64,000 bases of DNA from Octopus sinensis (taxonomy: Eukaryota), in the NCBI RefSeq assembly GCF_006345805.1, contig NC_042997.1, positions 206,584,001 through 206,648,000 of the forward strand, read 5' to 3'. Position numbers and translations under genes: made by a program. The notes under the pieces are model-generated. The model worked only from the letters and a program-made list of their open reading frames with translations, made no database searches and was not told where the DNA came from. Positions 2,190-60,239 of the stretch are shown in pieces; positions within the stretch are counted from its first letter, which is position 1, and the number at the start of each line of letters is the position of its first letter.

Positions 2190-3554
2190 CTTTCTGTACA
2201 ATGGCTGCAGCAACTCCTCCCCTGTGTTCCCGTCTGCCATTTGCAGCATCTGTGTCCAGAGTCGTGATGTCACCTTCCCTCAACACTATTTCACAGTTCT
2301 TATAATCAACATTAACTATTTCTTCTATAAATATTTCCATTTTCCTAATTTGCTCTTGTGTTCCTTCCAGGTGTAACTTATTATCTTTGAGACACACATT
2401 CTTAATTTTATTTTTCGCACCAAAGTCATTGATTTCTTGTTCTTTGAACTCTTTAAGAAAGAGGAAATGTTCAAGAGGCATCGATATATAAGATTCATAA
2501 GTTAAAGATTGCTCAAAGTTATCAATTTTGCTTTTTATATCATTAACTACAAAATCAACAGCAACAATAGAATTTTCTCCAATAAAATGGGAATCTGGAA
2601 ACTCTTCTTTTAGACTTTCAACAAATGTCAGCCACTTTCCATGATTTGGAGTATCCTTAATTTTGTCCACAAAATCCAGTGTATTGGCAACAAAAGTTTC
2701 TTTCATGATTTCTTCCAGAAGTGAAAGATGTGTTTTATCACTTGCATAAAGTATTACTGAATCACCATCACCCGTTTCCCATGAACCGATACATTTCTTG
2801 TTTCTCAGTTTTACATCAAGATATTCTTTCACTGTTTTTTTATTTATGATCATTCCAGTATTTAAAGGCAAAGGCAATTCAGATTTAACCATTGATTGAA
2901 GAATTTTATACATATACTTGTGACAAGTAGCTACTTCAGAATACTGGCCTTCAAAAATAACTTTGTTACCATGAATCCTGACTTGTAGACCTTCAAATTG
3001 TCCTTCTGCCAGCTCAAAAAATCTGTGACCAGATAGAATACGTCTTTCATGAATATTTAAATTAAACTCACATTTCCTTCTAAGATTATCCAAAAGTCTG
3101 TTTTTCATTTTAATCACATTACTTTTATCAAATCCCAAAATATTAGCTTGGAAATTCCGGTTATCAAAAAAAAAATACATCTTATCCTCTTCACTTTTAA
3201 ATGTTCTAGCAACATCTTCAAATATATCGGTTGGAACATCAATAATTTCAACAATAATGGAATATAATAACTCTTCCAAACATTGTTCAATTTGCTCAGA
3301 ATTTTCTTCAGAATATTTTAATTTCAGTGTATTATTCTTGGAATCTTTCCATATTACTTCAGCCCATTTCTTTAATTTGTCACAAACTATGATTTTATGT
3401 TTCTTTAAAAAGGTCAGATAGAACTTGGAAGGTAGTGAATAGTCATGGACTTGCTGTCTTGAAATGGTATTTTCTTCAGGTGGTTCCCAGAATGGTTGAA
3501 CATCTAACTTCACACCTTCCAGTCGATGTTGCATTCTACAAACGTCCAGCACAA
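2190..3554 (-). CDS. PARP14: PARP14-like large exon (end of RRM3, KH-like region, start of macrodomain 1); gene continues beyond the left edge
   Basis: 1365-nt open frame bounded by atttag|tt (3555-3556) and aaag|gttag (2188-2189), phase 1-1. Ends with macrodomain signature EIVLREGDITTLDTDAANGRREHRGGVAAAIVQK. RRM x3 - KH-like - macro order matches PARP14. A PARP9/15-type paralog is not excluded because the C-terminus is outside the window. Confidence 0.85.
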
Positions 3555-13430: not shown

Positions 13431-13784
13431 ACAATAGCCTTCAATTCAACCTGCATGACACTACCTTTTCATATTTTCCACTATATGATCCCTACCTTAT
13501 ATATGAGATAACCCTAAGTAATGGTGGGGATGGTGTAAAGCCTTTAGAAGTGTTCATGGGAGACAACAAAAAGGATAGGAACGATAGGAACTTCCGGTAG
13601 TGGTGGAGGGGTGGAATCTTGGTTGTACCGCGAACTAGCAAATTTAGACGAGAGCATCATCTGGATACGCATTCCTTCAGAGGAGGTAAAAAAAAAATAT
13701 TTAGTATGGGAATCCAAGCACATGCACTAGTTTATCTAGGGTGGCGGTGGTGGAAGAAGTCTTGGAAAAGAGAGTGGTAATCGA

Positions 13785-16700
13785 AAGAGAGACAGAGACA
13801 GAGTGAGGCTGAGAGAGAGACACAGTGAAGTCGAGAGTGAGACAGAGTGAAGCCGAGAGGGGGACAGATTGAGGTTGAGAGAGAGACAAATTGTGGGGGA
13901 GGCTGAGACAGAGTGAAGCCAAGAGAGAGACAGAGTGAGGTTGAGACAGAGACAAAGTGAGGCCGAGCGAGAGACAGAGTGAGGCCGAGAGTGAGAAAGC
14001 CGATAGAGAGACAGAGACAGAGTGAAGTCGAGACAGAGAGAAGCCGAGAGTGAAAAAGAGTGAGGTTGAGCGAGAGACAGAGGGAGGCCGAGAGAGAGAC
14101 AGAATGAAGCCGAGAGGGGGACAGAGTGAGGTTGAGAGAGAGACAGAGTGAAGTCGAGACTGAGACAGAGTGAAGCTGAGAGAGAGAGACAGAGTGAAGT
14201 CGAGAGTGAGACAGTGTGAAGCCGAGTGAGAGACAAAGTGAAGCCGAGAGTGAGAAAGAGGTTGAGAGAGAGACAAAGTGAGGCCAAGAGTGAGAAAGCC
14301 GATAGAGAGACAGAAACAGAGTGATGTTGAGACAGAGACAAAGTGAGGCTGAGAGAGAGAGACAGAGTGAAGTCGAGAGTGAGACAGAGTGAAGTCGAGA
14401 CTGAGACAGAGTGAAGCCGAGAGAGAGAGACAGAGTGAAGTCGAGAGTGAGACAGTGTGAAGCCGAGTGAGAGACAAAGTGAAGCCGAGAGTGAGAAAGA
14501 GGTTGAGAGAGAGACAAAGTGAGGCCAAGAGTGAGAAAGCCGATAGAGAGACAGAAACAGAGTGATGTTGAGACAGAGACAAAGTGAGGCTGAGAGAGAG
14601 AGACAGAGTGAAGTCGAGAGTGAGACAGAGTGAAGCCAAGAGTGTGACAGAGTGAAGTTGAGACAGAGACAGAGTGAGGCCGAGAGAGAGACAGAGTGAG
14701 GCCGAGAGAGAGACAGAGTGAAGCCTAGAGCGAGACAGAGTGAGGTTGAGAGAGACAGAGTGATGCCAAAAGAGAGACAGTGTGAAGCCGAGAGAGAGAC
14801 AGAGTGAAGCCGAGAGTGAGACAGAGTGAAGCCAAGAGTGTGACAGAGTGAAGTCGAGACAGAGACAGAGTGAAGCCGAGAGAGAGACAGAGTGAGGCCG
14901 AGAGTGAGAAAGCCGATAGAGAGACAGAGACAGAGTGAAGTCGAGACAGAGAGAAGCCGAGAGTGAAAAAGAGTGAGGTTGACGAGAGACAGAGAGGCGA
15001 GAGGAGAGGAGAGAGAGAGACAGAGTGATGCCGATAGGGAAATAGATTGAGGCTGAGAGAGAGACAGAGTGAAGCCGAAAGAGAGACAGAGTGAAGCCGA
15101 GAGAGAGAGACAGATGAGGCCAAGAGAGAGACAGGTGAGGGCCGAGAGAGAGACAGAGTGAAGCTGAAAGAGAGACAGAGTGAAGCCGAGAGTGAGAGAG
15201 TGAGGTTGAGAGAGAGAGACAGAGTGAGACAGAGACAGTGATGCCAAGAGAGACCGTGTGAAGCCGAGAGAGACAGAGTGAGCCGAGAGTGAGAAAGAGT
15301 GAGGTTGAGAGAGAGACAGAGTGAGACAGAGACAGTGATGCCAAGAGAGAAACAGTGTGAAGCCGAGAGAGAGACAAAGTGAAGCCGAGAGTGAGAAAGA
15401 GGTTGAGAGAGAGACAAAGTGAGGCCAAGAGTGAGAAAGCCGATAGAGAGACAGAAACAGAGTGATGTTGAGACAGAGACAAAGTGAGGCTGAGAGAGAG
15501 AGACAGAGTGAAGTCGAGAGTGTGAGACAGAGTGAAGCCAAGAGTGGACAGAGTGAAGTTGAGACAGAGACAGAGTGAGGCCGAGAGAGAGAGACAGAGT
15601 GAGGCCGAGAGAGAGACAGAGTGAAGCCTAGAGCGAGACAGAGTGAGGTGAGAGAGAGACAGAGTGATGCCCAAAAGAGAGACAGTGTGAAGCCGAGAAG
15701 AGAGACAGAGTGAAGCCGAGAGTGAGACAGAGTGAGGTGAGAGAGAGACAAAGTGTGGGGAGAGGTGAGAGACAGAGTGAGGCCGAGACAGAGACAGCGT
15801 GATGCCAAGAGGGAGTCAGAGTGAAGCCGAGAGAGAGAGGACAGAATGAGGCCAAGCGATAGACAGAGTGAAGCTGAGAGTGAGACAGAGTGAAGCCAAT
15901 AGGGAGACAGAGTGAGGTTGAGAGAGAGACACAGATGAGGCTGAGAGAGAGACACAGTGAAGTCGAGAGTGAGACAGAGTGAAGCCGAGAGGGGGACAGA
16001 TTGAGGTTGAGAGAGAGACAAATTGTGGGGGAGGCTGAAGTGAAGCCAAGAGAGAGACAGAGTGAGGTTGAGACAGAGACAAAGTGAGCCGAGACGATGA
16101 GTGAAAAGAGATAAGAGACGAGAGAGTCAAAGGAAGAAGCGACGAGAGTTGAGAAAGCGAGAGTGAGAGCCGAGTGAGAAAGCCGGTTAGAGATAGACAG
16201 AGACAGAGTGAAGTCGAGACAGAGAGAAGCCGAGCCGTGAAAAAGATGAGTTTGAGTGAGGAGCAGAGAGAGACAGAGCCGATGAGAGGGAAAGAATAGA
16301 GCCGGAGAGAGTGGGGGAAGAGTGTTGGGGACAGAGATGAGGTTGAGAGTGACAGAGAGACAGAGTGAGAGTCGAGACTGACAGAGGTGAAGTCTGAGAG
16401 AGAGAGACAGAGTGAAGTCGAGAGTGAGACAGTGTGAACCGATGAGAGACACAGTGAGCCGAGAGTGAGAAAGAGGTTGAGAGAGAGACAAAGTAGGTGA
16501 GAGAGAGACAAGACGAGTGAAAAGCCGATAGAGAGACAAACAGAGTGATTTTGAGACAGAGACAAAGTGAGGCTGAGAGAGAGAAGAGACGAGTGAGTCG
16601 AGAGAGTGAGACAGATGAAGTCGAGACTGAGACAGAGTGAAGCCGAGAGAGAGACAGAGTGAAGTCGAGAGTGAGACAGTGTGAAGCCGAGTGAGAGACA

Positions 16701-18970
16701 AAGTGAAGCCGAGAGTGAGAAAGAGGTTGAGAGAGAGACAAAGTGAGGCCAAGAGTGAGAAATCCAGTATAGAGAGAGACAGAAACAGAGTGATGTTGAG
16801 ACAGAGACAAAGTGAGGCTGAGAGAGAGACAGAGTGAAGTCGAGAGTGAGACAGAGTGAAGCCAAGAGTGTGACAGAGTGAAGTTGAGAGAGACAGTTGA
16901 GGCCGAGAGAGAGACAGAGTGAGGCCGAGAGAGAGACAGAGTGAAGCCTAGAGCGAGACAGAGTGAGGTTGAGAGAGACAGAGTGATGCCAAAAGAGAGA
17001 CAGTGTGAAGCCGAGAGAGAGACAGAGTGAAGCCGAGAGTGAGACAGAGTGAAGCCAAGAGTGTGACAGAGTGAAGTCGAGACAGAGACAGAGTGAAGCC
17101 GAGAGAGAGACAGAGTGAGGCCGAGAGTGAGAAAGCCGATAGAGAGACAGAGACAGAGTGAAGTCGAGACAGAGAGAAGCCGAGAGTGAAAAAGAGTGAG
17201 GTTGAGCGAGAGACAGAGGGAGGCCGAGAGAGAGACAGAATGAAGCCGAGAGGGGGACAGAGTGAGGTTGAGAGAGAGACAGAGTGAAGTCGAGAGTGAG
17301 ACAGAGTGAAGTCGAGACTGAGACAGAGTGAAGCCGAGAGAGAGAGACAGAGTGAAGTCGAGAGTGAGACAGTGTGAAGCCGAGTGAGAGACAAAGTGAA
17401 GCCGAGAGTGAGAAAGAGGTTGAGAGAAGAGCAAAGTGAGGCCAAGAGTGAGAAAGCCGATAGGAGACAACACAGAAAGAGTGATGTTGAGACAGAGACA
17501 AATGGAGGCTAGAGAGAGAGACAGAGTGAAGTCGAGAGTGAGACAGAGTGAAGCCAAGAGTGTGACAGAGTGAAGTTGAGACAGAGACAGAGTGAGGCCG
17601 AGAGAGAGACAGAGTGAGGCCGAGAGAGAGACAGAGTGAAGCCTAGAGCGAGACAGAGTGAGGTTGAGAGAGAGACAGAGTGATGCCAAAAGAGAGACAG
17701 TGTGAAGCCGAGAGAGAGACAGAGTGAAGCCGAGAGTGAGACAGAGTGAGGTTGAGAGAGAGACAAAGTGTGGGGGAGTGAGAGACAGAGTGAGGCCGAG
17801 ACAGAGACAGAGTGATGCCAAGAGGGAGTCAGAGTGAAGCCGAGAGAGAGACAGAATGAGGCCAAGCGATAGACAGAGTGAAGCTGAGAGTGAGACAGAG
17901 TGAAGCCGATAGGGAGACAGAGTGAGGTTGAGAGAGAGACAGAGTGAGGCCGAGAGAGAGACAGAGTGAACCCGAAAGAGAGACAGAGTGGAGCCAAGAG
18001 AGAGACAGAGTGAGGCCGAGAGAGAGACAGAGTGATGCCGATAGGGAGTCAGAGTGAAGTCGAGAGAGAGATAGAATGAGGCCAAGCGATAGACAGAGTG
18101 AAGCCGAGAGTGAGACAGAGTGATGCCGAGAGAGAGAGACAGAGTGATGCCGATAGGGAAATAGATTGAGGCTGAGAGAGAGACAGAGTGAAGCCGAAAG
18201 AGAGACAGAGTGAAGCCGAGAGAGAGACAGACTGAGGCCAAGAGAGAGACAGGGTGAGGCCGAGAGAGAGACAGAGTGAAGCTGAAAGAGAGACAGAGTG
18301 AAGCCGAGAGTGAGAGAGTGAGGTTGAGAGAGAGACAGAGTGAGACAGAGACAGTGATGCCAAGAGAGAGACCGTGTGAAGCCGAGAGAGACAGAGTGAA
18401 GCCGAGAGTGAGAAAGAGTGAGGTTGAGAGAGAGACAGAGTGAGACAGAGACAGTGATGCCAAGAGAGAAACAGTGTGAAGCCGAGAGAGAGACAGAGTG
18501 AAGCCGAGAGTGAGAAAGAGTGAGGTTGAGAGAGAGACAGAGTGAGACAGAGACAGTGATGCCAAGAGAGAAACAGTGTGAAGCCGAGAGAGAGACAGAG
18601 TGAAGCCGAGAGCGAGAAAGAGTGAGGTTGAGAGAGAGACAAAGTGTGGGTGAGTGAGAGACAGAGTGAGGCCGAGAGAGAAACAGGGTGAGGCCGAGAG
18701 AGAAACAGAGTGAGGCACAGAGAGAGACAGAGTGAGGCCGAGAGTGAGAAAGAGTGTGGTTGAGAGAGAGAAAGAGTGAGGTTGAGAGAGAGACAAAGTG
18801 TGGGTGAGTGAGAGACAGAGTGAGGCCGAGAGAGAAACAGAGTGAGGCACAGAGAGAGACAGAGTGAGGCTGAGAGTGAGAAAGAGTGTGGTTGAGAGAG
18901 AGAAAGAGTGTGGTTGAGAGAGAGACAGAGTGAGGCCGAGAGAGAAACAGAGTGAGACAGAGACAGAGTG
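13785..18970. repeat. GA-rich degenerate minisatellite (~20-22 bp units), about 5.2 kb
   Basis: Repeating gagacagagtga(a/g)g(c/t)(c/t)gaga units with a strongly purine-rich plus strand. Source of all the S/L/C/H-rich minus-strand ORFs. Confidence 0.95.
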
Positions 18971-19019
18971 AAACCTTGCTAGTGGCAGTTAGGAACAAGG
19001 GAGTATCGAAAGCAGAGAA

Positions 19020-20830
19020 AAAAAGGGGAAAAAAAAAGAAAAACATTATGCAACAAGGGATTACACAATCAATTTGATAAAACCATAACAGAAGACACTG
19101 GAAAAAGTAGGTGGGATGGGCAGAAGAAAGGAACATAAAGAAAGAGACTGAGAGCAGCACCATACTGGCAATGCAAGACCAAGCTTTGGCCACGAACTGC
19201 AGGGTCAATCTTTAGGAATGAGCAAGTGTCTCTGCTGTGCTACATCTGTAAAAGAGTGGATGAAACCATTACCCATATTATGAATGAATGCCCTAAACTT
19301 ACCCATAATCACTACAAGATGTGACAACATGATCAGTACCGAAAGAGCTATCTTAGAAACTGTGCGAAAAGTGGAATCTAGAGAGAATGTGGTATGAACA
19401 CAAACTGGCAGAGTTGGAAACTTGAAAAATCCTCTAGGATTTCCCAATCCAAACAGAATAGGTGCTAGGGTATAACACACTGGACCTAATGGTGGTCAAC
19501 AACATCCACACCACAAGTGCTACATAGACTAACAGATAAGGTTGCTTTTATGTGTGGCAGATGTGCAAGAACAATAAGCACTAAGAACACGAGGGACCTA
19601 GACTCTCTCAATGCTAAGGTGGATCTCTTAAGGTAGTAGATAGTTTCTGCTGTTCAGGGGACCAAATTAGTAACGATGGTGAATGCTCTGAAAATATTGT
19701 TTCTAGAGTAAGAATAGGCTGGAGGAAGTTCAGGGAGCCATTACCTCTGTTGGTAACAAAAGGACTCTCTCTCAGAGTGAAAGGTAGACTGTGTGATGGA
19801 TGTGTGCCAACGGCTGTATTCCATGGTAGTGAAACATTGGCTCTGAATACAGGAGACATGTGCAGACTAGAGAGAAATGAAGGCAATATGCTTTGCTGGA
19901 TGTGCAACATCAGAGCGCACGACCAACAAAGCGTGACTGTACTGAGAAAAAGATTAGGCATAAGAAAGATTAAATGTGGCATGCAGGAGAGAAGACTGCA
20001 TTGGTTTGGACATGTGATGTGTATGAATGGAGACAGATGTATGAAGAAATGCTTGTCGTTGAAACATAAATGGCTTCTGTGGAAGAAGGATGCCCAGGAG
20101 AACATGAGATGAAGTAATGAGGACCGATTTCAGGATGTTGGGACTCATGGAGTAAATGACACTGGACTGAGATGGTTGTGATACATGTGCCTGGTGTATC
20201 CTTATCAGATGGGTAGTCATGATGGGTATACTGGGCTTCGTATATTTTACCCCAGTGCCACTTTGATGGTATGCACTGCTCTCTTACTCAATAATAATGA
20301 TAATGATATTAATAACAGCAACAGTAACAACAGCAACAACAACAACAACAATAATAATTTAATGAAGCCATTGCCCTTACTGTGAATGAATGCTCTCAAC
20401 TTGCCCCAAACCAATATGAGTTGTGGTGACATGATGAGGTTGCAAAAGTGTTGCATTGGAAAGTATGAGGAAAGTTGGGGTTAGAGAGAAGCAAAACATG
20501 GTACAAACAGAAACCACAGAGAATCACAGAGTCAGAGACCTGTAAAATCTTGTGGGATTTTTCAATGCAGAATGGGCCAAGCGCTTGAGTACAACAAGCC
20601 AGGCCTGGTCGTTGTGGACAAGGTGAACCACATGTGCTCTATAACTGATGTTGCATACGCATTTGACCCACAATTAGTTAGGTGAACAAGTAGACAATCC
20701 TCTTAAATGTGCTTGACTGTGAAAGATGGAGATAATACTAATTATTATTGGGGCCCTGGGGACAGTATCAGAAGATATTAAGAGGAAATGAGGACAGAGC
20801 GCTGAGTAGAGCTGTCTGCCACCTTGTCAC
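19020..20830 (+). mobile_element. Decayed R4-like LINE 3' fragments interrupted by an RTE fragment (~19500-20185)
   Basis: gcaagaccaagctttggccacgaac (QDQALATN) and tgggatttt (WDF) motifs. The RTE part encodes KGLSLRVKGRL...HGSET...RRLHWFGHV, homologous to 11434-11832. Confidence 0.65.
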
Positions 20831-21000: not shown

Positions 21001-21234
21001 CATATGCCTCTTTAAAACTTATAATGTAAGTATCAGAGGTTTGTTGTTGAACTGAAGAAATATCTCCACCAAAACTTTTTTTTCTGTTTCCAAAATATCT
21101 TTGAAGACTCTCAAAGCTGACATTTGAAGAAACGTTTTTCACTTGAACACTGTTTATTTCCTTAATTCTATCCACTTTCAGTTGATTTCCTTTTAAGGGG
21201 TTGTTTTGGCACATCCTCTGAACATTCTCAAAAT
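21001..21234 (-). CDS. PARP14: PARP14-like coding exon (end of RRM2, start of RRM3)
   Basis: ttgcag|at acceptor at 21235-21236, atg|gtaag donor at 20999-21000. 234 nt, phase 1-1. Reads DFENVQRMC...SVQVKNVSSNVSFESLQRYFGNRKKSFGGDI...YIISFKEAY, a second YFxNxxxSxGG RRM motif. Confidence 0.85.
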
Positions 21235-38265: not shown

Positions 38266-38446
38266 CTTTTTCCGATTCAAAAGTGATAATAACTTCCTCA
38301 GAATATTGGATCCGTTCTGGGATTCCTTTAATAGGTCCTCCACTTGATCTCTTCTTGTTCTCAAAATAAGACTGAATGGCTTCCAAACGGAAATCAGTTG
38401 GGACTCCTGACACCAATATCGTTCTGCCCTCTTCATCTCCTCCCAT
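38266..38446 (-). CDS. PARP14: PARP14-like macro-PARP, first coding exon (RRM1); exon spans 38266-38463 including 17 nt of 5'UTR
   Basis: Acceptor ttttacag|gaa at 38464-38465, donor aaag|gttag at 38264-38265. ATG at 38446 in good context (agtATGg). Translation MGGDEEGRTILVSGVPTDFRLEAIQSYFENKKRSSGGPI...IITFESEK contains the YFENxxRSxGG motif typical of PARP14/PARP10 RRMs. 181 coding nt, phase 1. Confidence 0.85.
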
Positions 38447-38787
38447 ACTCGTGGCAGATATTCCTGTAAAATAAAACCAAGATTTAATGCTAGACAAATA
38501 CAAGTTACTCACCATCAATGTAACAATACTGTGCTATCCACATCATAAACATCCACTTTACATGCCTGATGTAAACCTGAAATACATGTAGCCTTCAAAC
38601 AGTCCAGATATGCTAGAAGTAACAGCCAAAGTTTTTCAAAAGTTCACCCAACTATTTTTAAAATAGACAGCTTACCACATGGAGTAAAGGCTGCAAAGAC
38701 GTTCAGATAAGCAATCTCTTGATTCAACTTAGCAAAACCTAATTCCCCATTTTACATCATTCATATTTCACTCCTATAGCTCATTTA

Positions 38788-55358: not shown

Positions 55359-56784
55359 TAACAAACACCTTTTCCCGCCATCTTCATGTCAGACTATCAT
55401 CTTATAATGAAATTACTTTTGAAGCCATCTTTTAATTTACTTATGTTTTCAGGGAGCTGGAGGGGAGGTGGAGGAGCAATAAAGAGAAAAGTGGAGAAAG
55501 AAGGAAAGAAAGAAAGAGAGAGAGAAGGAAAGGTAGAAAGAGAGAAAGAAAACATGTAAACAAAAACCCATGTGTCATGTTACGGCCTTTTAACGCCACA
55601 CCCAAGAAATCAAAATGAAAGCAATAAAATTAAGACTGAAAATGAATCGCAGTAAAAAAAGGTGAGGTAACGTGTAAATATATTTCCGTGATCAACAAAC
55701 ATTACAGAGTAACCTTTTACTAAAGCGGCTTCAATTAATAGAAAACCTGTTGGGAAATCTTGGATAAATAATTCCCACGTTTTCGATGATAACAAATTAT
55801 TCTGATTTCGCTAAAAACCACACGGCATTTCCAACTCTGAATCTGTCCCTCCCAACCCGCATTTATCAATGTATACAGGTTTTGTATATGTGTGTGTATA
55901 TGTATGAAATGTATACTATATCCGTATGTATGTATGTATGTATGTATGGTGTATTACATCAATTAATAAAGAACCGAAAGAAAAAGAAAATCTGTTTATT
56001 CAGAGATTCTCTCAAACCAAATCCAAACAAGTTTCCACATACCTCTTCGGTTGCTTCTCACTACAACTCCTGTTTCAATCCTAGCCCACATTTGCTATAT
56101 TTTCATTCTACTGGGGCGGCGATCATTTGCCAGAAATGCCCCCATCGTCTTAAATATCAACATGAAACTGACGTGTTAGTATCCCTGATAATGAAACAAT
56201 TGTCTTCTTCTAGGGTGTGGCCTATATGAGGAGACTTGGCTGCCATTTCTAGCTTCACGTACGTTAAAACTTTCAACATAATTTTATGGAATCCAGGTAA
56301 CAAAAAAAATTAACAGGAAAACTATGGGAGTTTTATCCAGAGGTGGGGGCGATTGTCCGAGGGGGTTTTGTCCTAGGTGAGGGACATAAATTATTTGTGA
56401 CTTTATTACAGGTCTTCCTTTTATGACCAGGAAAACATGGCATACCTTACACAGGTGCCCCCTCCATCGATTTTGTTTGTTCGTAACTTTCAGAAAAGTT
56501 GATGTTCTTGAATGAAATTTACTAGAAATAGCTTCAAGAGGTTCCAATGATGGGGGAAAATATCGATGGCTTTGCAAACATACATAATGACACACATCAC
56601 ATATACCCACAAAACTTGGAAATACTTACACACACACACATTCTGAAAACGGAGAGGAAACAACAAATCCACGTAGTTATAATGTAAGGAAAAGTATTGA
56701 AATCGATTTTGTGAAATATTTGTAAAGCAATGGAGAGACGGGATTAAAGAAATTAAATTAGGAAGATGTAAAACGAAGACTTAC

Positions 56785-56890
56785 CTCGTAACAACTCTGA
56801 GTAAAACTGAAACTTGAATCTTTATTTAATCGTTTTTAAGCTGTTGATTGGTTTAACAACAACTTTGGATGACATCAATGGTTTTCCCAG
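56785..56890 (-). other. Putative non-coding first exon of the PARP14-like gene (5' boundary uncertain)
   Basis: Strong donor cgag|gtaagt at 56783-56784 in unique, CpG-retaining sequence. Splicing to 38463 puts an in-frame TAA upstream of the ATG at 38446. Candidate TSS signals: TATAAAA (minus, 56916-56922) or Inr-like TCAGTT (minus, 56805-56810). Confidence 0.5.
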
Positions 56891-57111
56891 AAAAAAACGC
56901 TTCCCCTCCGCCCTCTTTTATACAATTTATTTTCCAAGAAAACTTTGTGATAAAAGTTTATTATTATTATTTACAACAGACGACATAAAGGAAACTTTTC
57001 AAAAGAAGAAAAACCTGAAATAGTTTTTTTATAGGAAATGAAGGTGAATGTAGGTTAGAGAAGATTTCACTTTCATTTTTGACACATCCAGAGACTTCAC
57101 TTTCATTTTTG
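56803..57111 (-). promoter_or_regulatory. Putative promoter with clustered IRF/ISRE and STAT(GAS) motifs
   Basis: ISRE-like AGTTTCAGTTTT (minus, 56803-56814); CCAAT (minus, ~56847-56851); GAS TTCCCAGAA (56884-56892) and TTCCAAGAA (56932-56940); GC box CCGCCC (56908-56913); TATAAAA (minus, 56916-56922); TTC-N4-GAA (56998-57007); two IRF-E-like AAAATGAAAGTGAA(A) copies 30 bp apart (57065-57079, 57096-57110). Confidence 0.55.
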
Positions 57112-57792
57112 TCAGTCAACACAGAATTTATCTGGTTTTTTCCAATGTTAGCCATAAGTTGGCGCATTCTTCCACAAACCTTCAGTTGGTGTGTCCAAGT
57201 CCACGCACACATGTATATTAAACCAAGGTTTTACCTTTAAATTATCTGCTACCGTATACCTTATAGCTAGGATTATACGTAGTAAGGTATTGGCACCAGG
57301 AGTGCCAATGGAAACGGCTATCCCTTAGATGGTTGCATAACCACTTATTTATATCTTCATTAACACACACACACACATATATATACCTACACGCACACAC
57401 ACATACATATATATATTTGTATATATATATATATGTGTGTGTATGTATATATATATATATATGTATACTATTACACACACATACATACAAACATACATCC
57501 ATACATATATACATACGTACGTACATACATACATACATACGTACGTACATACAGACATATGAGGGGATTTAGCTTGACCCTGCCTGAGATTTCAAATCAA
57601 ATTCACCGGCTTGTTGCTCGTCAAAACGTGCAGGAAATCCGCCACACTAGATTGGTGAGGAAACACTCCACCCCCTAGGACCTGTGCTGGTCAAGGAAAG
57701 GTCAGTGTTTTGTTTAAGGTTTGACATACATTACAGACCATAGCCAATATAGCACAGGCAATTTTCTATCTCTTCCACTGATGTGTCAGCTA

Positions 57793-59754
57793 TGACCAAG
57801 GAGCAACACCGACTCTTAGATGTCAGCCAGACCAAGGAGCAACACCGGCTCCTTTGAGTCAGCCAGACCAAGGAGCAACACTGACTCTTAGATGTCAGCC
57901 AGACCAAGGAGCAACACCGCCTCCTTTGAGTCAGCCAGACCAAGGAGAAACACCGACTCTTAGATGTCAGCCAGAGCAAGTAGCAACACCGACTCTTAGA
58001 TGTCAGCCAGACCAAGGAGCAACACCAGTTCCTTTGAGTCAACCAGAGCAAGGAGCAAGACCGACTCTTAGATGTCAGCCAGACCAAGGAGCAACACCGG
58101 CTCCTTTGAGTCAGCCATAGCAAGGAGCAACACCAACTCTTAGATGTCAGCCAGACCAAGGAGCAAGACCGACTCTTAGATGTCAGCCAGACCAAGGAGT
58201 AGCACCAACACTTAGATGTCAGCCAGACCAAGGAGCAACACCGGCTCCTTTGAGTCAGCCAGACCAAGGAGCAACACCGACTCTTAGATGTCAGCCAGAC
58301 CAAGGAGTAGTACCAACACTTAGATGTCAGCCAGACCAAGGAGCAACACCGGCTCCTTTGAGTCAGCCAGACCAAGGAGCAACACCGACTCTTAGATGAC
58401 AGCCAGGGCAAGGAGCAACATCGACTCTTAGATGTCAGCCAGACCAAGGAGCAACACCGGCTCCTTTGAGTCAGCCAGACCAAGGAGCAACACCGGATCC
58501 TTTGAGTCAGCAAGACCAAGGAGCAACACCGACTCTTAGATGTCAGCCAGATCAAGGAGCAACACCAGCTCGTTTGAGTCAGCCAGACCAAGGAGCAACA
58601 CCGACTCTTAGGTGTCAGCCAGACCAAGGAGCAACACCGACTGTTAGATATCAGCCAGACCAAGGAGCAACACCGGCTCCTTTGAGTCAGCCAGATCAAG
58701 AAGCAACACCGACTCTTAGATGGCAGCCAGACCAAAGTGCAACACCAGCTCCTTTGAGTCAGCCAGACCAAGGAGCAACACCGACTCTTAGATATCAGCC
58801 AGACCAAGGAGCAACACCGGCTCCTTTGAGTCAGCCAGATCAAGGAGCAACACAGACTCTTAGATGTCAGCCAGACCAAGAAGCAACACCGGCTCATTTG
58901 AGTCAGCCAGACCAAGGAGCAACACCGGCTCCTTTGAGTCAGCCAGACCAAGGAGCAACACCGACTCTTAGATGTCAGCCAGACCAAGGAGCAACACCGA
59001 CTCTTAGATGTAAGCCAGACCAAGGAGCAACACCGGCTCCTTTGAGTCAGCCAGATCAAAGAGCAACACCGACTCTTAGATGGCAGCCAGACCAAGGAGC
59101 AACACCGGCTCCTTTGAGTCAGCCAGACCAAAGAGCAAGACCAGCTCCTTTGAGTCAGCCAGACCAAGGAGCAACACAGACTCTTAGATTTCAGCCAGAC
59201 CAAGAAGCAACACCGACTCCTTTGAGTCAGCCAGACCAAGGAGCAACACCGACTCTTAGATGTCAGCCAGACCAAGGAGCAACACCGACTCTTAGATGTA
59301 AGCCAGACCAAGGAGCAACACCGGCTCCTTTGAGTCAGCCAGATCAAAGAGCAACACCGACACTTAGATGGCAGCCAGACCAAGGAGCAACACCGGCTCC
59401 TTTGAGTCAGCCAGACCAAAGAGCAACACCAGCTCCTTTGAGTCAGCCAGACCAAGGAGCAACACAGACTCTTAGATTTCAGCCAGACCAAGAAGCAACA
59501 CCGACTCCTTTGAGTCAGCCAGACCAAGGAGCAACACCGACTCTTAGATGACAGCCAGGGCAAGGAGCAACACCGACTCTTAGATGTCAGCCAGACCAAG
59601 GAGCAACACCGGCTCCTTTGAGTCAGCCAGACCAAGGAGCAACACCGACTCCTTTGAGTCAGCCAGACCAAGGATCAACACCGACTCTTAGATGTCAGCC
59701 AGACCAAGGAGCAACACCAACTCTTAGATGTCAGCCAGACCAAGGAGCAACACC
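57793..59754. repeat. 36-bp two-variant minisatellite, about 54 copies
   Basis: Units tcagccagaccaaggagcaacacc-gactcttagatg (A) and tcagccagaccaaggagcaacacc-ggctcctttgag (B) are interspersed with no indels. Confidence 0.97.
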
Positions 59755-60239
59755 CACATTTGCGTCGGCCTTAACCAAGAGCAGCACTTCCCTTCACTCG
59801 ACATGCGAAGAGAGCCTTTTGGCTGCAAGAAAGGTGATGCCGCCTTTATCCTTTCTTCCTTTCTAGTCAGCACCATGACTACCTTACTCTTTCCCTCTCT
59901 ACTAACAGACAACCTTTTTCTATAGAGCAACTGCTAACCAGCGTGTCATCCTTGTCGCCACTGTCACTAGAATTGCTACTGTCTCTGTAACAACCTGTCG
60001 GGTAAACGAATAAATATATGTAAACAACATTTCTTCCTTCTTGGAGTTAATTCTTCAAAGTTCACTGGTTACTCCAACAGAGAACCTTCAAGCGTTACAT
60101 CTACACGCTACATTTAGTAGTGCGCTACATCATATCGAATTGATATGGCACACCACATCCAGCCCACTACACATACAAACATATATACATCTATGCATGC
60201 ATGCATACATACATACATACATAATGGCTGCCCCTCATT

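What the first reader, a model, noticed from the sequence alone, without database searches (positions are those of the whole stretch)
56785..57111. Interferon-stimulated-gene-like promoter (ISRE/IRF-E plus GAS cluster) on an invertebrate PARP14-like gene
Seen: within ~310 bp around a strong minus-strand splice donor there are two IRF-E-like elements (AAAATGAAAGTGAA, 57065-57079 and 57096-57110), an ISRE-like AGTTTCAGTTTT (56803-56814), two perfect GAS sites TTCCCAGAA and TTCCAAGAA (56884, 56932), a TTC-N4-GAA site, and TATA, CCAAT and GC-box elements. Known: vertebrate PARP14, PARP9 and DTX3L are interferon-induced via IRF/STAT elements, and molluscs have IRF and STAT factors but no recognised interferon ligand. 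Inference: this is the PARP14-like promoter, wired into an IRF/STAT antiviral regulon that predates or parallels interferon. AT-rich DNA does yield such motifs by chance, so the clustering at the predicted TSS is the argument.
Basis: partly seen in the sequence, partly recalled or inferred. Interest (0 to 1): 0.75.

Follow-up and report, generated by a model that had tools for sequence, protein, structure and literature searches.

The report
Interferon-style switch on octopus PARP14 genes
An octopus carries a large cluster of PARP14-like genes whose shared first exon holds the same pair of DNA signals (an IRF site next to a STAT site) that interferon uses on human PARP14, which likely makes these genes immune-inducible in an animal with no recognised interferon; binding and induction are untested.

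Summary
The motifs are present and far above background (0 of 20,000 shuffles reach 2 IRF + 2 GAS sites). The stretch is the promoter/non-coding first exon of a PARP14-like gene (RRM, macro, PARP). It was co-duplicated with an octopus gene cluster: 38 copies anchored, 26 on chromosome C1. Spliced contigs from a probable RNA run break exactly at the 56785 donor, but they come from paralogs. They go through a 35-nt ATG microexon that this copy lacks, so the direct 56785→38463 junction is not shown. Across copies the ISRE (36 of 38) and proximal GAS (34 of 38) persist and change mostly at spacer bases (joint p 0.003-0.04). An unlisted CRE-like site also persists. The GC box (2 of 38) and TATA (8 of 38) do not, and the second IRF-E is a 30-bp duplication. 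ISRE and GAS probably lie in the 5'UTR. The genome has three IRF genes and one STAT gene. Human PARP14 is a proven ISRE+GAS composite gene. No binding or induction data exist. A genome-wide composite search showed no excess. Verdict: likely a real IRF/STAT module, a new member of a known kind. The scan had noted the gene cluster before, not this promoter.

The parts
57055..57114 (-). 30-bp tandem duplication, each unit carrying the IRF-E
   Evidence: one unit in most copies that keep this stretch, two here and in L003/L004 (second decayed there), three in L002
57096..57109 (-). Distal IRF-E, duplicated copy
57065..57079 (-). IRF-E, three GAAA-type half-sites (AAAATGAAAGTGAAA)
   Evidence: 14-mer present in 19 of 38 copies; 2 changes over 15 sites vs 0.49 per background site, p 0.05; decayed in outgroup L097, 8 of 11 core bases
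56998..57007 (.). TTC-N4-GAA site, probably incidental
   Evidence: 10 of 38 copies; absent from the deep lineages aligned
56932..56940 (.). Distal GAS, poorly conserved
   Evidence: a GAS sits at the matching place in outgroup L097 but aligned only 3 of 6 core bases
56916..56922 (-). TATAAAA, weak candidate TATA box
   Evidence: 8 of 38 copies; kept 7 of 7 in outgroup L097
56908..56913 (-). GGGCGG, private to this copy and L009; not a conserved GC box
   Evidence: 2 of 38 copies
56884..56892 (.). Proximal GAS (TTC-N3-GAA), 69 nt from the ISRE
   Evidence: 34 of 38 copies; central base changes 8-9 times on the tree, core 1 time once one out-of-register row is dropped, 4 times with it
56870..56877 (-).
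   Evidence: 32 of 38 copies; altered in L097
56847..56851 (-). CCAAT
   Evidence: 33 of 38 copies; conservation not tested for significance
56803..56814 (-). ISRE (AGTTTCAGTTTT); overlaps an Inr-like TCAGTT at 56810-56805
   Evidence: TTTC-NN-TTT in 36 of 38, strict ASTTTCRSTTT in 31 of 38; 1 core change over 8 sites vs 0.92 per background site, p 0.011-0.058
56785..56989 (-). Non-coding exon 1; 5' end not fixed (a spliced paralog contig reaches 56858, overlapping contigs reach 56989)
   Evidence: run X1, contigs none of which is 99%+ identical to this copy
56779..56784 (-). Splice donor GTAAGT
   Evidence: GTAAG in 35 of 38 copies; 2 contigs of X1 break at 56785
38266..38463 (-). First coding exon in this copy (RRM); ATG at 38446 in AGTATGG context
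   Evidence: both exon edges seen as contig breaks
27002..27238 (-). Coding exon (RRM region)
   Evidence: tblastn, splice sites
21001..21234 (-). Coding exon (RRM region)
2190..3554 (-). Large coding exon ending in the start of a macrodomain; macro and PARP catalytic exons follow outside the window, to about 52.5 kb before window base 1

Best explanation
This is the promoter and non-coding first exon of an octopus PARP14-like gene, copied with a tandem cluster of such genes, and its paired ISRE and GAS sites likely let IRF and STAT factors switch the genes on in immune challenge. Shown: the motifs, their excess over background, the gene downstream, use of the donor in paralog transcripts, co-duplication of the module, and the presence of IRF and STAT genes. 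Inferred: an IRF1/2-like factor would bind the ISRE (and the distal IRF-E where kept); the STAT would bind the proximal GAS 69 nt away; a bZIP factor (ATF/Jun type) may bind the CRE-like site; transcription likely starts at spread positions around 56990-56860, which would put ISRE and GAS in the 5'UTR. The product is predicted to be a macrodomain mono-ADP-ribosyltransferase. The upstream signal would be RLR/TBK1-to-IRF and an unknown cytokine-to-JAK/STAT, as proposed for oysters.
For: Enrichment: 0 of 20,000 shuffles, 0 of 35,203 background windows. Position: the cluster sits on one of only two AG|GTAAGT donors between 38463 and 64000 on the minus strand. A 184-nt, depth-41 contig in X1 appears in both read layings, covering exon 1 (56785-56858) and exon A (38389-38465) with the microexon between (taken as one contig from equal length, depth and complementary record positions). 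Footprint: ISRE 36 of 38, GAS 34 of 38; ISRE+GAS core changes 5 (p 0.024/0.043) or 2 (p 0.003/0.006) over 14 sites; the variable bases are the ISRE spacer (G12/C11/A3 of 26 rows) and the GAS centre. Outgroup L097 (68% identical) keeps 14 of 14 core bases vs 58 of 80 neighbours, p 0.017. Paralog variants equal functional human sites: TTTC-TCG-GAAA (IRF2; TTC-TCG-GAA also in MYD88, SP110) and, in L030, AG-TTT-CAG-TTT-CG (DTX3L/PARP9); the 69-nt spacing lies in the human 0-415 nt range. Human PARP14 is a mutationally proven composite gene (PMC10287828). Three IRF genes, the C9 one closest to IRF1/2 structures with the FRCALNS helix intact, and one STAT. Strict IRF sites are enriched in 120 kb upstream of the three IRF genes, 7 vs 1.65, P 0.0016. 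In Aplysia a PARP14 co-expresses with JAK2, SOCS2 and DDX58 (PMC8195618).
Against: No binding, chromatin or induction data. Copies are young, found by similarity and probably gene-converted, so the footprint is modest: GAS alone p 0.08-0.41, ISRE alone p 0.011-0.058. CpG decay may explain part of the GAS-centre changes. The ISRE overlaps an Inr-like word and lies 19-30 nt from the donor. This copy's exon 1 had 0 of 9 X1 contigs at 99%+ identity and lacks the microexon. No strict IRF site in 80 kb before the RLR C-terminal exon or in 20 kb of the STAT locus. Genome-wide GAS+ISRE composites number 124 vs ~115 expected, and the genes recognised near 19 sampled sites were not immune genes. ISRE+donor outside the family: 14 vs 15 in the reversed control. 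In Nematostella, IRF and STAT knockdowns did not reduce cGAMP-induced genes while NF-kB knockdown did (PMC8713801).
Confidence: 0.6

Rival explanations
1. Ordinary promoter/5'UTR: the ISRE-like word is an initiator (TCAGTT, YYANWYY) or splice-adjacent sequence, the GAS and IRF-E are chance words in A/T-run-rich DNA, and duplication spread them.
For: The Inr pattern also allows change at 56807; 46% of background sites never change either; the GAS test alone is not significant; CCAAT lies about 40 nt upstream of the Inr-like A.
Against: Enrichment far beyond shuffles and genome background. The three ISRE core bases outside the Inr never change. The spliced contig includes 50 nt upstream of the Inr-like A, so at least some transcripts do not start there.
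Confidence: 0.2
2. The sites are real IRF/STAT sites but drive haemocyte-lineage, basal or general stress/cytokine expression rather than an antiviral, interferon-like response.
For: Oyster IRF1/IRF8 also control haemocyte proliferation after LPS (PMC13524488). The single STAT hit and the conserved CRE-like site fit broader signalling. Contigs cover the family's exons in the runs laid, with treatment unknown.
Against: The ISRE+GAS pairing matches the human IFN-composite class that includes PARP14. Mollusc PARP14 co-expresses with RLR/JAK genes.
Confidence: 0.17
3. The module is a transposon-derived enhancer that carried ISRE/GAS sites in, as endogenous retroviral LTRs did in mammals (recalled).
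For: It is multi-copy (47 matches) with varied upstream breakpoints.
Against: All placed copies lie in three PARP14-like clusters on C1. 22 of 26 are upstream, on the same strand, of a family exon within 60 kb or a PARP catalytic exon within 250 kb. None is dispersed on other chromosomes. No Rfam match in the region.
Confidence: 0.03

Closest known systems
Human ISRE+GAS composite promoters: PARP14, PARP9/DTX3L, IRF2, SP110, CASP4 (PMC10287828; passages and supplementary file 2 read)
   Same: ISRE and GAS within 0-415 nt in promoter/5'UTR; same gene family for PARP14; octopus variants equal the DTX3L/PARP9 ISRE and the IRF2 GAS
   Different: Human PARP14 has GAS abutting the ISRE (0 nt), here 69 nt; this copy's ISRE ends TTT-T, not TTT-C; STAT1/STAT2/IRF9 binding and IFN response are proven in human and nothing is tested here; no sequence homology between the promoters was tested
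Shrimp Vago4 ISRE bound by LvIRF (PMC4602278, passages)
   Same: Invertebrate endogenous ISRE in a 5'UTR, IRF-dependent and poly(I:C)/virus responsive
   Different: Target is a cytokine, a single ISRE with no GAS described in the passages read; experimentally tested
Oyster IFN-like system: CgIRF1/CgIRF8, CgIFNLP, poly(I:C)-induced ISG homologues (PMC8218723, PMC5869526, PMC13524488; passages)
   Same: Molluscan IRFs bind ISRE; JAK/STAT and RLR are present; no true interferon
   Different: Mostly mammalian reporters; no PARP14 promoter or paralog footprint in the passages read
Nematostella poly(I:C)-induced promoters enriched for IRF/STAT/NF-kB motifs (PMC8476169, passages)
   Same: IRF/STAT motif enrichment at invertebrate immune genes without interferon
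   Different: Set-level enrichment with induction data; the term PARP does not occur in its main text

Membership tests
ISRE+GAS composite interferon-stimulated-gene promoter | ISRE matching AG-TTT-CNN-TTT-CN | tested here: met
   AG-TTT-CAG-TTT-TA, one mismatch at the final C as in functional SP110, CASP4, STX17 sites; L030 is a full match
ISRE+GAS composite interferon-stimulated-gene promoter | GAS (TTC-N3-GAA) within about 0-415 nt of the ISRE | tested here: met
   69 nt; 34 of 38 copies
ISRE+GAS composite interferon-stimulated-gene promoter | Located in promoter/5'UTR of the gene | tested here: met
   Paralog contigs cover 56785-56989 and splice at 56785; exact TSS not obtainable from contigs
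ISRE+GAS composite interferon-stimulated-gene promoter | Sites under selective constraint | tested here: inconclusive
   Joint p 0.003-0.04; GAS alone not significant
ISRE+GAS composite interferon-stimulated-gene promoter | Bound by IRF and STAT factors | not testable with these tools
   Factors present; no ChIP/EMSA
ISRE+GAS composite interferon-stimulated-gene promoter | Induced by interferon or dsRNA/virus through these sites | not testable with these tools
   Only contigs of runs with no library record; interferon not identified in oyster (PMC5869526); not searched for in this genome
PARP14-like macro-PARP gene | N-terminal RRMs, macrodomains, PARP catalytic domain | tested here: met
   P0012, whose macro and PARP exons match this locus at 82-100%, has RRM_PARP14, Macro and PARP domains
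PARP14-like macro-PARP gene | WWE domain and three intact macrodomains as in human PARP14 (recalled) | tested here: not met
   No WWE hit in P0012; first macrodomain looks truncated at this locus
TATA/GC-box core promoter | Conserved TATA and GC box upstream of the start | tested here: not met
   GGGCGG 2 of 38, TATAAAA 8 of 38
Transposon-derived immune enhancer | Dispersed copies independent of the host gene | tested here: not met
   Copies confined to PARP14-like clusters

The most novel reading that the evidence does not exclude
IRF+STAT composite control of PARP14 is an ancestral bilaterian link older than interferon. Octopus has amplified it into a 20-30 gene ADP-ribosylation arsenal under one switch, tuned by local duplication of IRF and GAS sites, with IRF genes feeding back on themselves through GAS-ISRE elements.
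Probability: 0.25. Interest if true: 0.75.

Novelty: new member of a known kind. Interest (0 to 1): 0.5.

Why it matters
Whether invertebrates have an interferon-like regulon, and what cytokine drives it, is an open question. Most mollusc evidence uses mammalian reporter elements. This is an endogenous ISRE+GAS module on the homologue of a proven human composite gene, present in dozens of natural variants (sites lost, improved or multiplied). It offers a ready reporter to screen for the unknown cephalopod cytokine and a natural series to test which sites matter.

Tried and rejected
Microexon in this copy: best match 12 mismatches of 35 on the window's minus strand, so absent (first try timed out). 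Shared C-terminal exons between neighbouring copies: rejected, the upstream copy has its own PARP exon at C1:206671454. ISRE+donor pattern outside the family: 14 vs 15 control, no excess; none of the 14 had a second strict site nearby. Genome-wide GAS+ISRE composite: 124 vs 61 reversed control looked enriched, but component rates predict ~115 and ~87, so rejected as support. 19 sites or site clusters chosen from the first 100 listed of 124 were fetched; 15 proteins (14 ORFs from these loci plus P0012) were scanned and showed intermediate filament, VWA, protocadherin and Pif1 matches, no immune family (part was cut and partly reprinted). RLR, STAT and one of three Deltex loci: 0, 0 and 1 strict IRF sites, TSS unknown. 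Deltex genes lie on C14 and C25, not in the PARP clusters. No RNA holder on record was listed; runs are guessed RNA. X3 laid nothing on the promoter and X5/X6 only short pieces: no evidence either way. Rfam: only a microsatellite-level mir-297 hit outside the region. Pfam found nothing in the two window ORFs alone. The octopus poly(I:C) paper PMC11252417 has no PARP mention in its main text and its supplements could not be read; they may bear on induction. Rows dropped: one spurious anchor (L033 second hit), one partial hit (C11628:1-221) not fetched, identical rows collapsed (38 to 26), L033 dropped in one of two runs. Promoters of other species could not be reached.

Full report
Observation. 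Using recalled strict consensus words, the 327-nt region holds 3 IRF and 2 GAS sites. In 353,310 nt of other DNA from this genome there were 12 and 31, and 0 of 35,203 overlapping windows had two IRF sites. Dinucleotide shuffles reached 2 IRF + 2 GAS in 0 of 20,000 and 2 IRF + 1 GAS in 4 of 20,000. The two upstream IRF-Es are one 30-bp tandem duplication, so I count them once. The cluster is still unlikely by chance (3.5e-4 over ~200 windows).

The gene. The best relatives of the large exon are proteins named PARP14-like from Octopus. Four exons in the window (38463-38266, 27238-27002, 21234-21001, 3554-2190) join in one frame by their splice sites. Macro and PARP catalytic exons follow to about 52.5 kb outside the window. 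P0012, which matches those outer exons, carries RRM_PARP14, Macro and PARP domains and no WWE hit. The last catalytic exon has 31 matches in the genome, so this is an expanded family; earlier scan notes e1-9503992 and e1-9573272 describe the cluster but not the promoter.

Transcription evidence. No run was on record as RNA. In run X1 (guessed RNA), 9 contigs covered 56785-56989, none 99% identical to this copy, and 2 broke exactly at 56785. Their loose end is a 35-nt exon with an ATG that occurs in 9 places in the family but not in this window. A 184-nt, depth-41 contig appears in both layings and spans exon 1, that microexon and exon A; I take these as one contig from length, depth and record positions. 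So the donor is real for the family, while the direct 56785→38463 junction is unshown. This copy could start at the ATG at 38446. Exon A contigs with no differences from the window exist in X1 and X2. The spliced contig contains ISRE and CCAAT, and overlapping contigs extend past both GAS sites, so these elements probably lie in the 5'UTR of at least some transcripts; contigs cannot fix a start.

Natural footprint. The module has 47 matches. I anchored 37 copies and added a 68% identical outgroup, L097: 38 in all, 26 on C1 and 12 on unplaced contigs that may be assembly duplicates. 22 of the 26 lie upstream of family exons. Retention among 38: ISRE half-sites 36, donor 35, proximal GAS 34, CCAAT 33, TGATGTCA 32, distal IRF-E 19, N4 site 10, TATA 8, GC box 2. 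On a tree of 26 distinct rows built from non-motif sites, background sites changed 0.92 times each. The ISRE core changed once over 8 sites (p 0.011, base-matched 0.027) and its spacer base 3 times. The GAS core changed 4 times over 6 sites (p 0.41), of which 3 come from one row aligned one base out of register; without that row it changed once (p 0.085), the ISRE p becomes 0.027/0.058 and the joint p 0.003/0.006, against 0.024/0.043 with it. The GAS centre changed 8-9 times, perhaps partly by CpG decay. L097 keeps 14 of 14 proximal core bases against 58 of 80 neighbours (p 0.017); L024 gives p 0.048 and L020 p 0.15; the distal IRF-E has decayed in L097. This is moderate evidence: copies were found by similarity and gene conversion is likely.

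Trans factors and regulon. The genome has three IRF genes and one STAT hit, and one RLR. The C9 IRF is closest to IRF1/2-type structures and keeps the FRCALNS helix; the C1 IRF is more diverged. The strict IRF word, fixed earlier, occurs 37,437 times genome-wide and 7 times in 120 kb upstream of the IRF genes (1.65 expected, P 0.0016), but 0 times in the RLR and STAT stretches; start sites are unknown. A GAS-ISRE composite lies upstream of the C1 IRF. Against a broad regulon: no excess of ISRE+donor sites or of composites (124 vs ~115), and no immune family recognised near 19 sampled sites.

Mechanism. Most likely (0.6) an IRF1/2-like factor binds the ISRE and the STAT binds the proximal GAS, with a bZIP factor at the CRE-like site, giving immune induction of a family of predicted mono-ADP-ribosyltransferases. 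Binding, induction and the upstream signal are inferred. Rivals: chance or initiator sequence spread by duplication (0.2), real sites for haemocyte or general signalling (0.17), transposon origin (0.03).

Comparison with known systems. Human PARP14 is a functional ISRE+GAS composite gene (PMC10287828, passages). Its supplementary table of 43 composites, read whole, includes ISREs ending TTT-T, spacings of 66 and 77 nt, and sites equal to octopus variants. Invertebrate precedents: shrimp IRF binds an ISRE in the Vago4 5'UTR (PMC4602278, passages); oyster and scallop IRFs bind ISRE (PMC13524488, passages); oysters induce ISG homologues without a known interferon (PMC5869526, PMC8218723, passages); Nematostella poly(I:C) promoters are enriched for IRF/STAT motifs (PMC8476169, passages), though IRF/STAT knockdown did not cut the cGAMP response (PMC8713801, passages). 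Aplysia PARP14 co-expresses with JAK2, SOCS2 and DDX58 (PMC8195618, passages); PMC9334734 (passages) lists 17 Aplysia PARPs, 7 IRFs and one STAT. No paper describing ISRE/GAS at an invertebrate PARP14 promoter appeared in ten searches of the open library; subscription journals were not searched.

Verdict. It works like an ISRE+GAS composite promoter by sequence, position and conservation. Membership is unproven because binding and induction could not be tested. The concept is known; this endogenous, family-wide instance seems new. Novelty: new member of a known kind. Interest 0.5.

Noticed in passing
G000:C1:56307275-56307303 (L107), 18.8 kb upstream of an IRF DNA-binding exon: GAS (TTCGGGGAA) 8 nt from a full ISRE (GAAACTGAAACT), about 150 nt before a GTAAGT donor-like site. 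It is one of 124 such composites genome-wide; chance within the 120 kb scanned is 0.005, but the pattern was written after seeing it. Possible IRF autoregulation.
   Followed up: partly
G000:C9:33483240 and 33494793 (L099, L103): Full ISRE and a triple half-site upstream of the IRF1/2-like gene on C9.
   Followed up: partly
G000:C25:20751400-20753400 (L130/L131): Dense GAS/IRF cluster, repeated about 1.1 kb later, upstream of a small uncharacterised ORF (L131:1534-1920). Its only non-octopus hit carries a PT-HINT domain, so it may be of bacterial polymorphic-toxin-domain origin. Candidate second ISG-like gene.
   Followed up: partly
L014, L016, L017; L002: Local tandem duplications multiply sites: an ~84-bp unit gives 4-6 GAS sites; the 30-bp unit gives 3 IRF-Es.
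   Followed up: partly
L047-L055: 35-nt microexon carrying the start codon (MAEK-G, phase 1) in 9 places in the family; absent from this window's gene.
   Followed up: yes
window 56875-56822, minus strand: ATG inside the CRE-like site opens a 17-codon upstream ORF if transcription starts above it; no ATG there in L097 or the L015 clade.
   Followed up: partly
window 2190-2260 and downstream loci L037-L042: First macrodomain appears shortened and its second half was not found by tblastn.
   Followed up: no
L027-L029: Three promoter copies keep ISRE, GAS and CRE but have lost the splice donor.
   Followed up: no
G000:C1:161724994-161744133: Five tandem GAS+ISRE composites 4-6 kb apart, no gene recognised.
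   Followed up: partly
window 57731-59866 and 13700-19200: Long tandem repeat arrays; LINE and other transposon fragments fill the introns.
   Followed up: no
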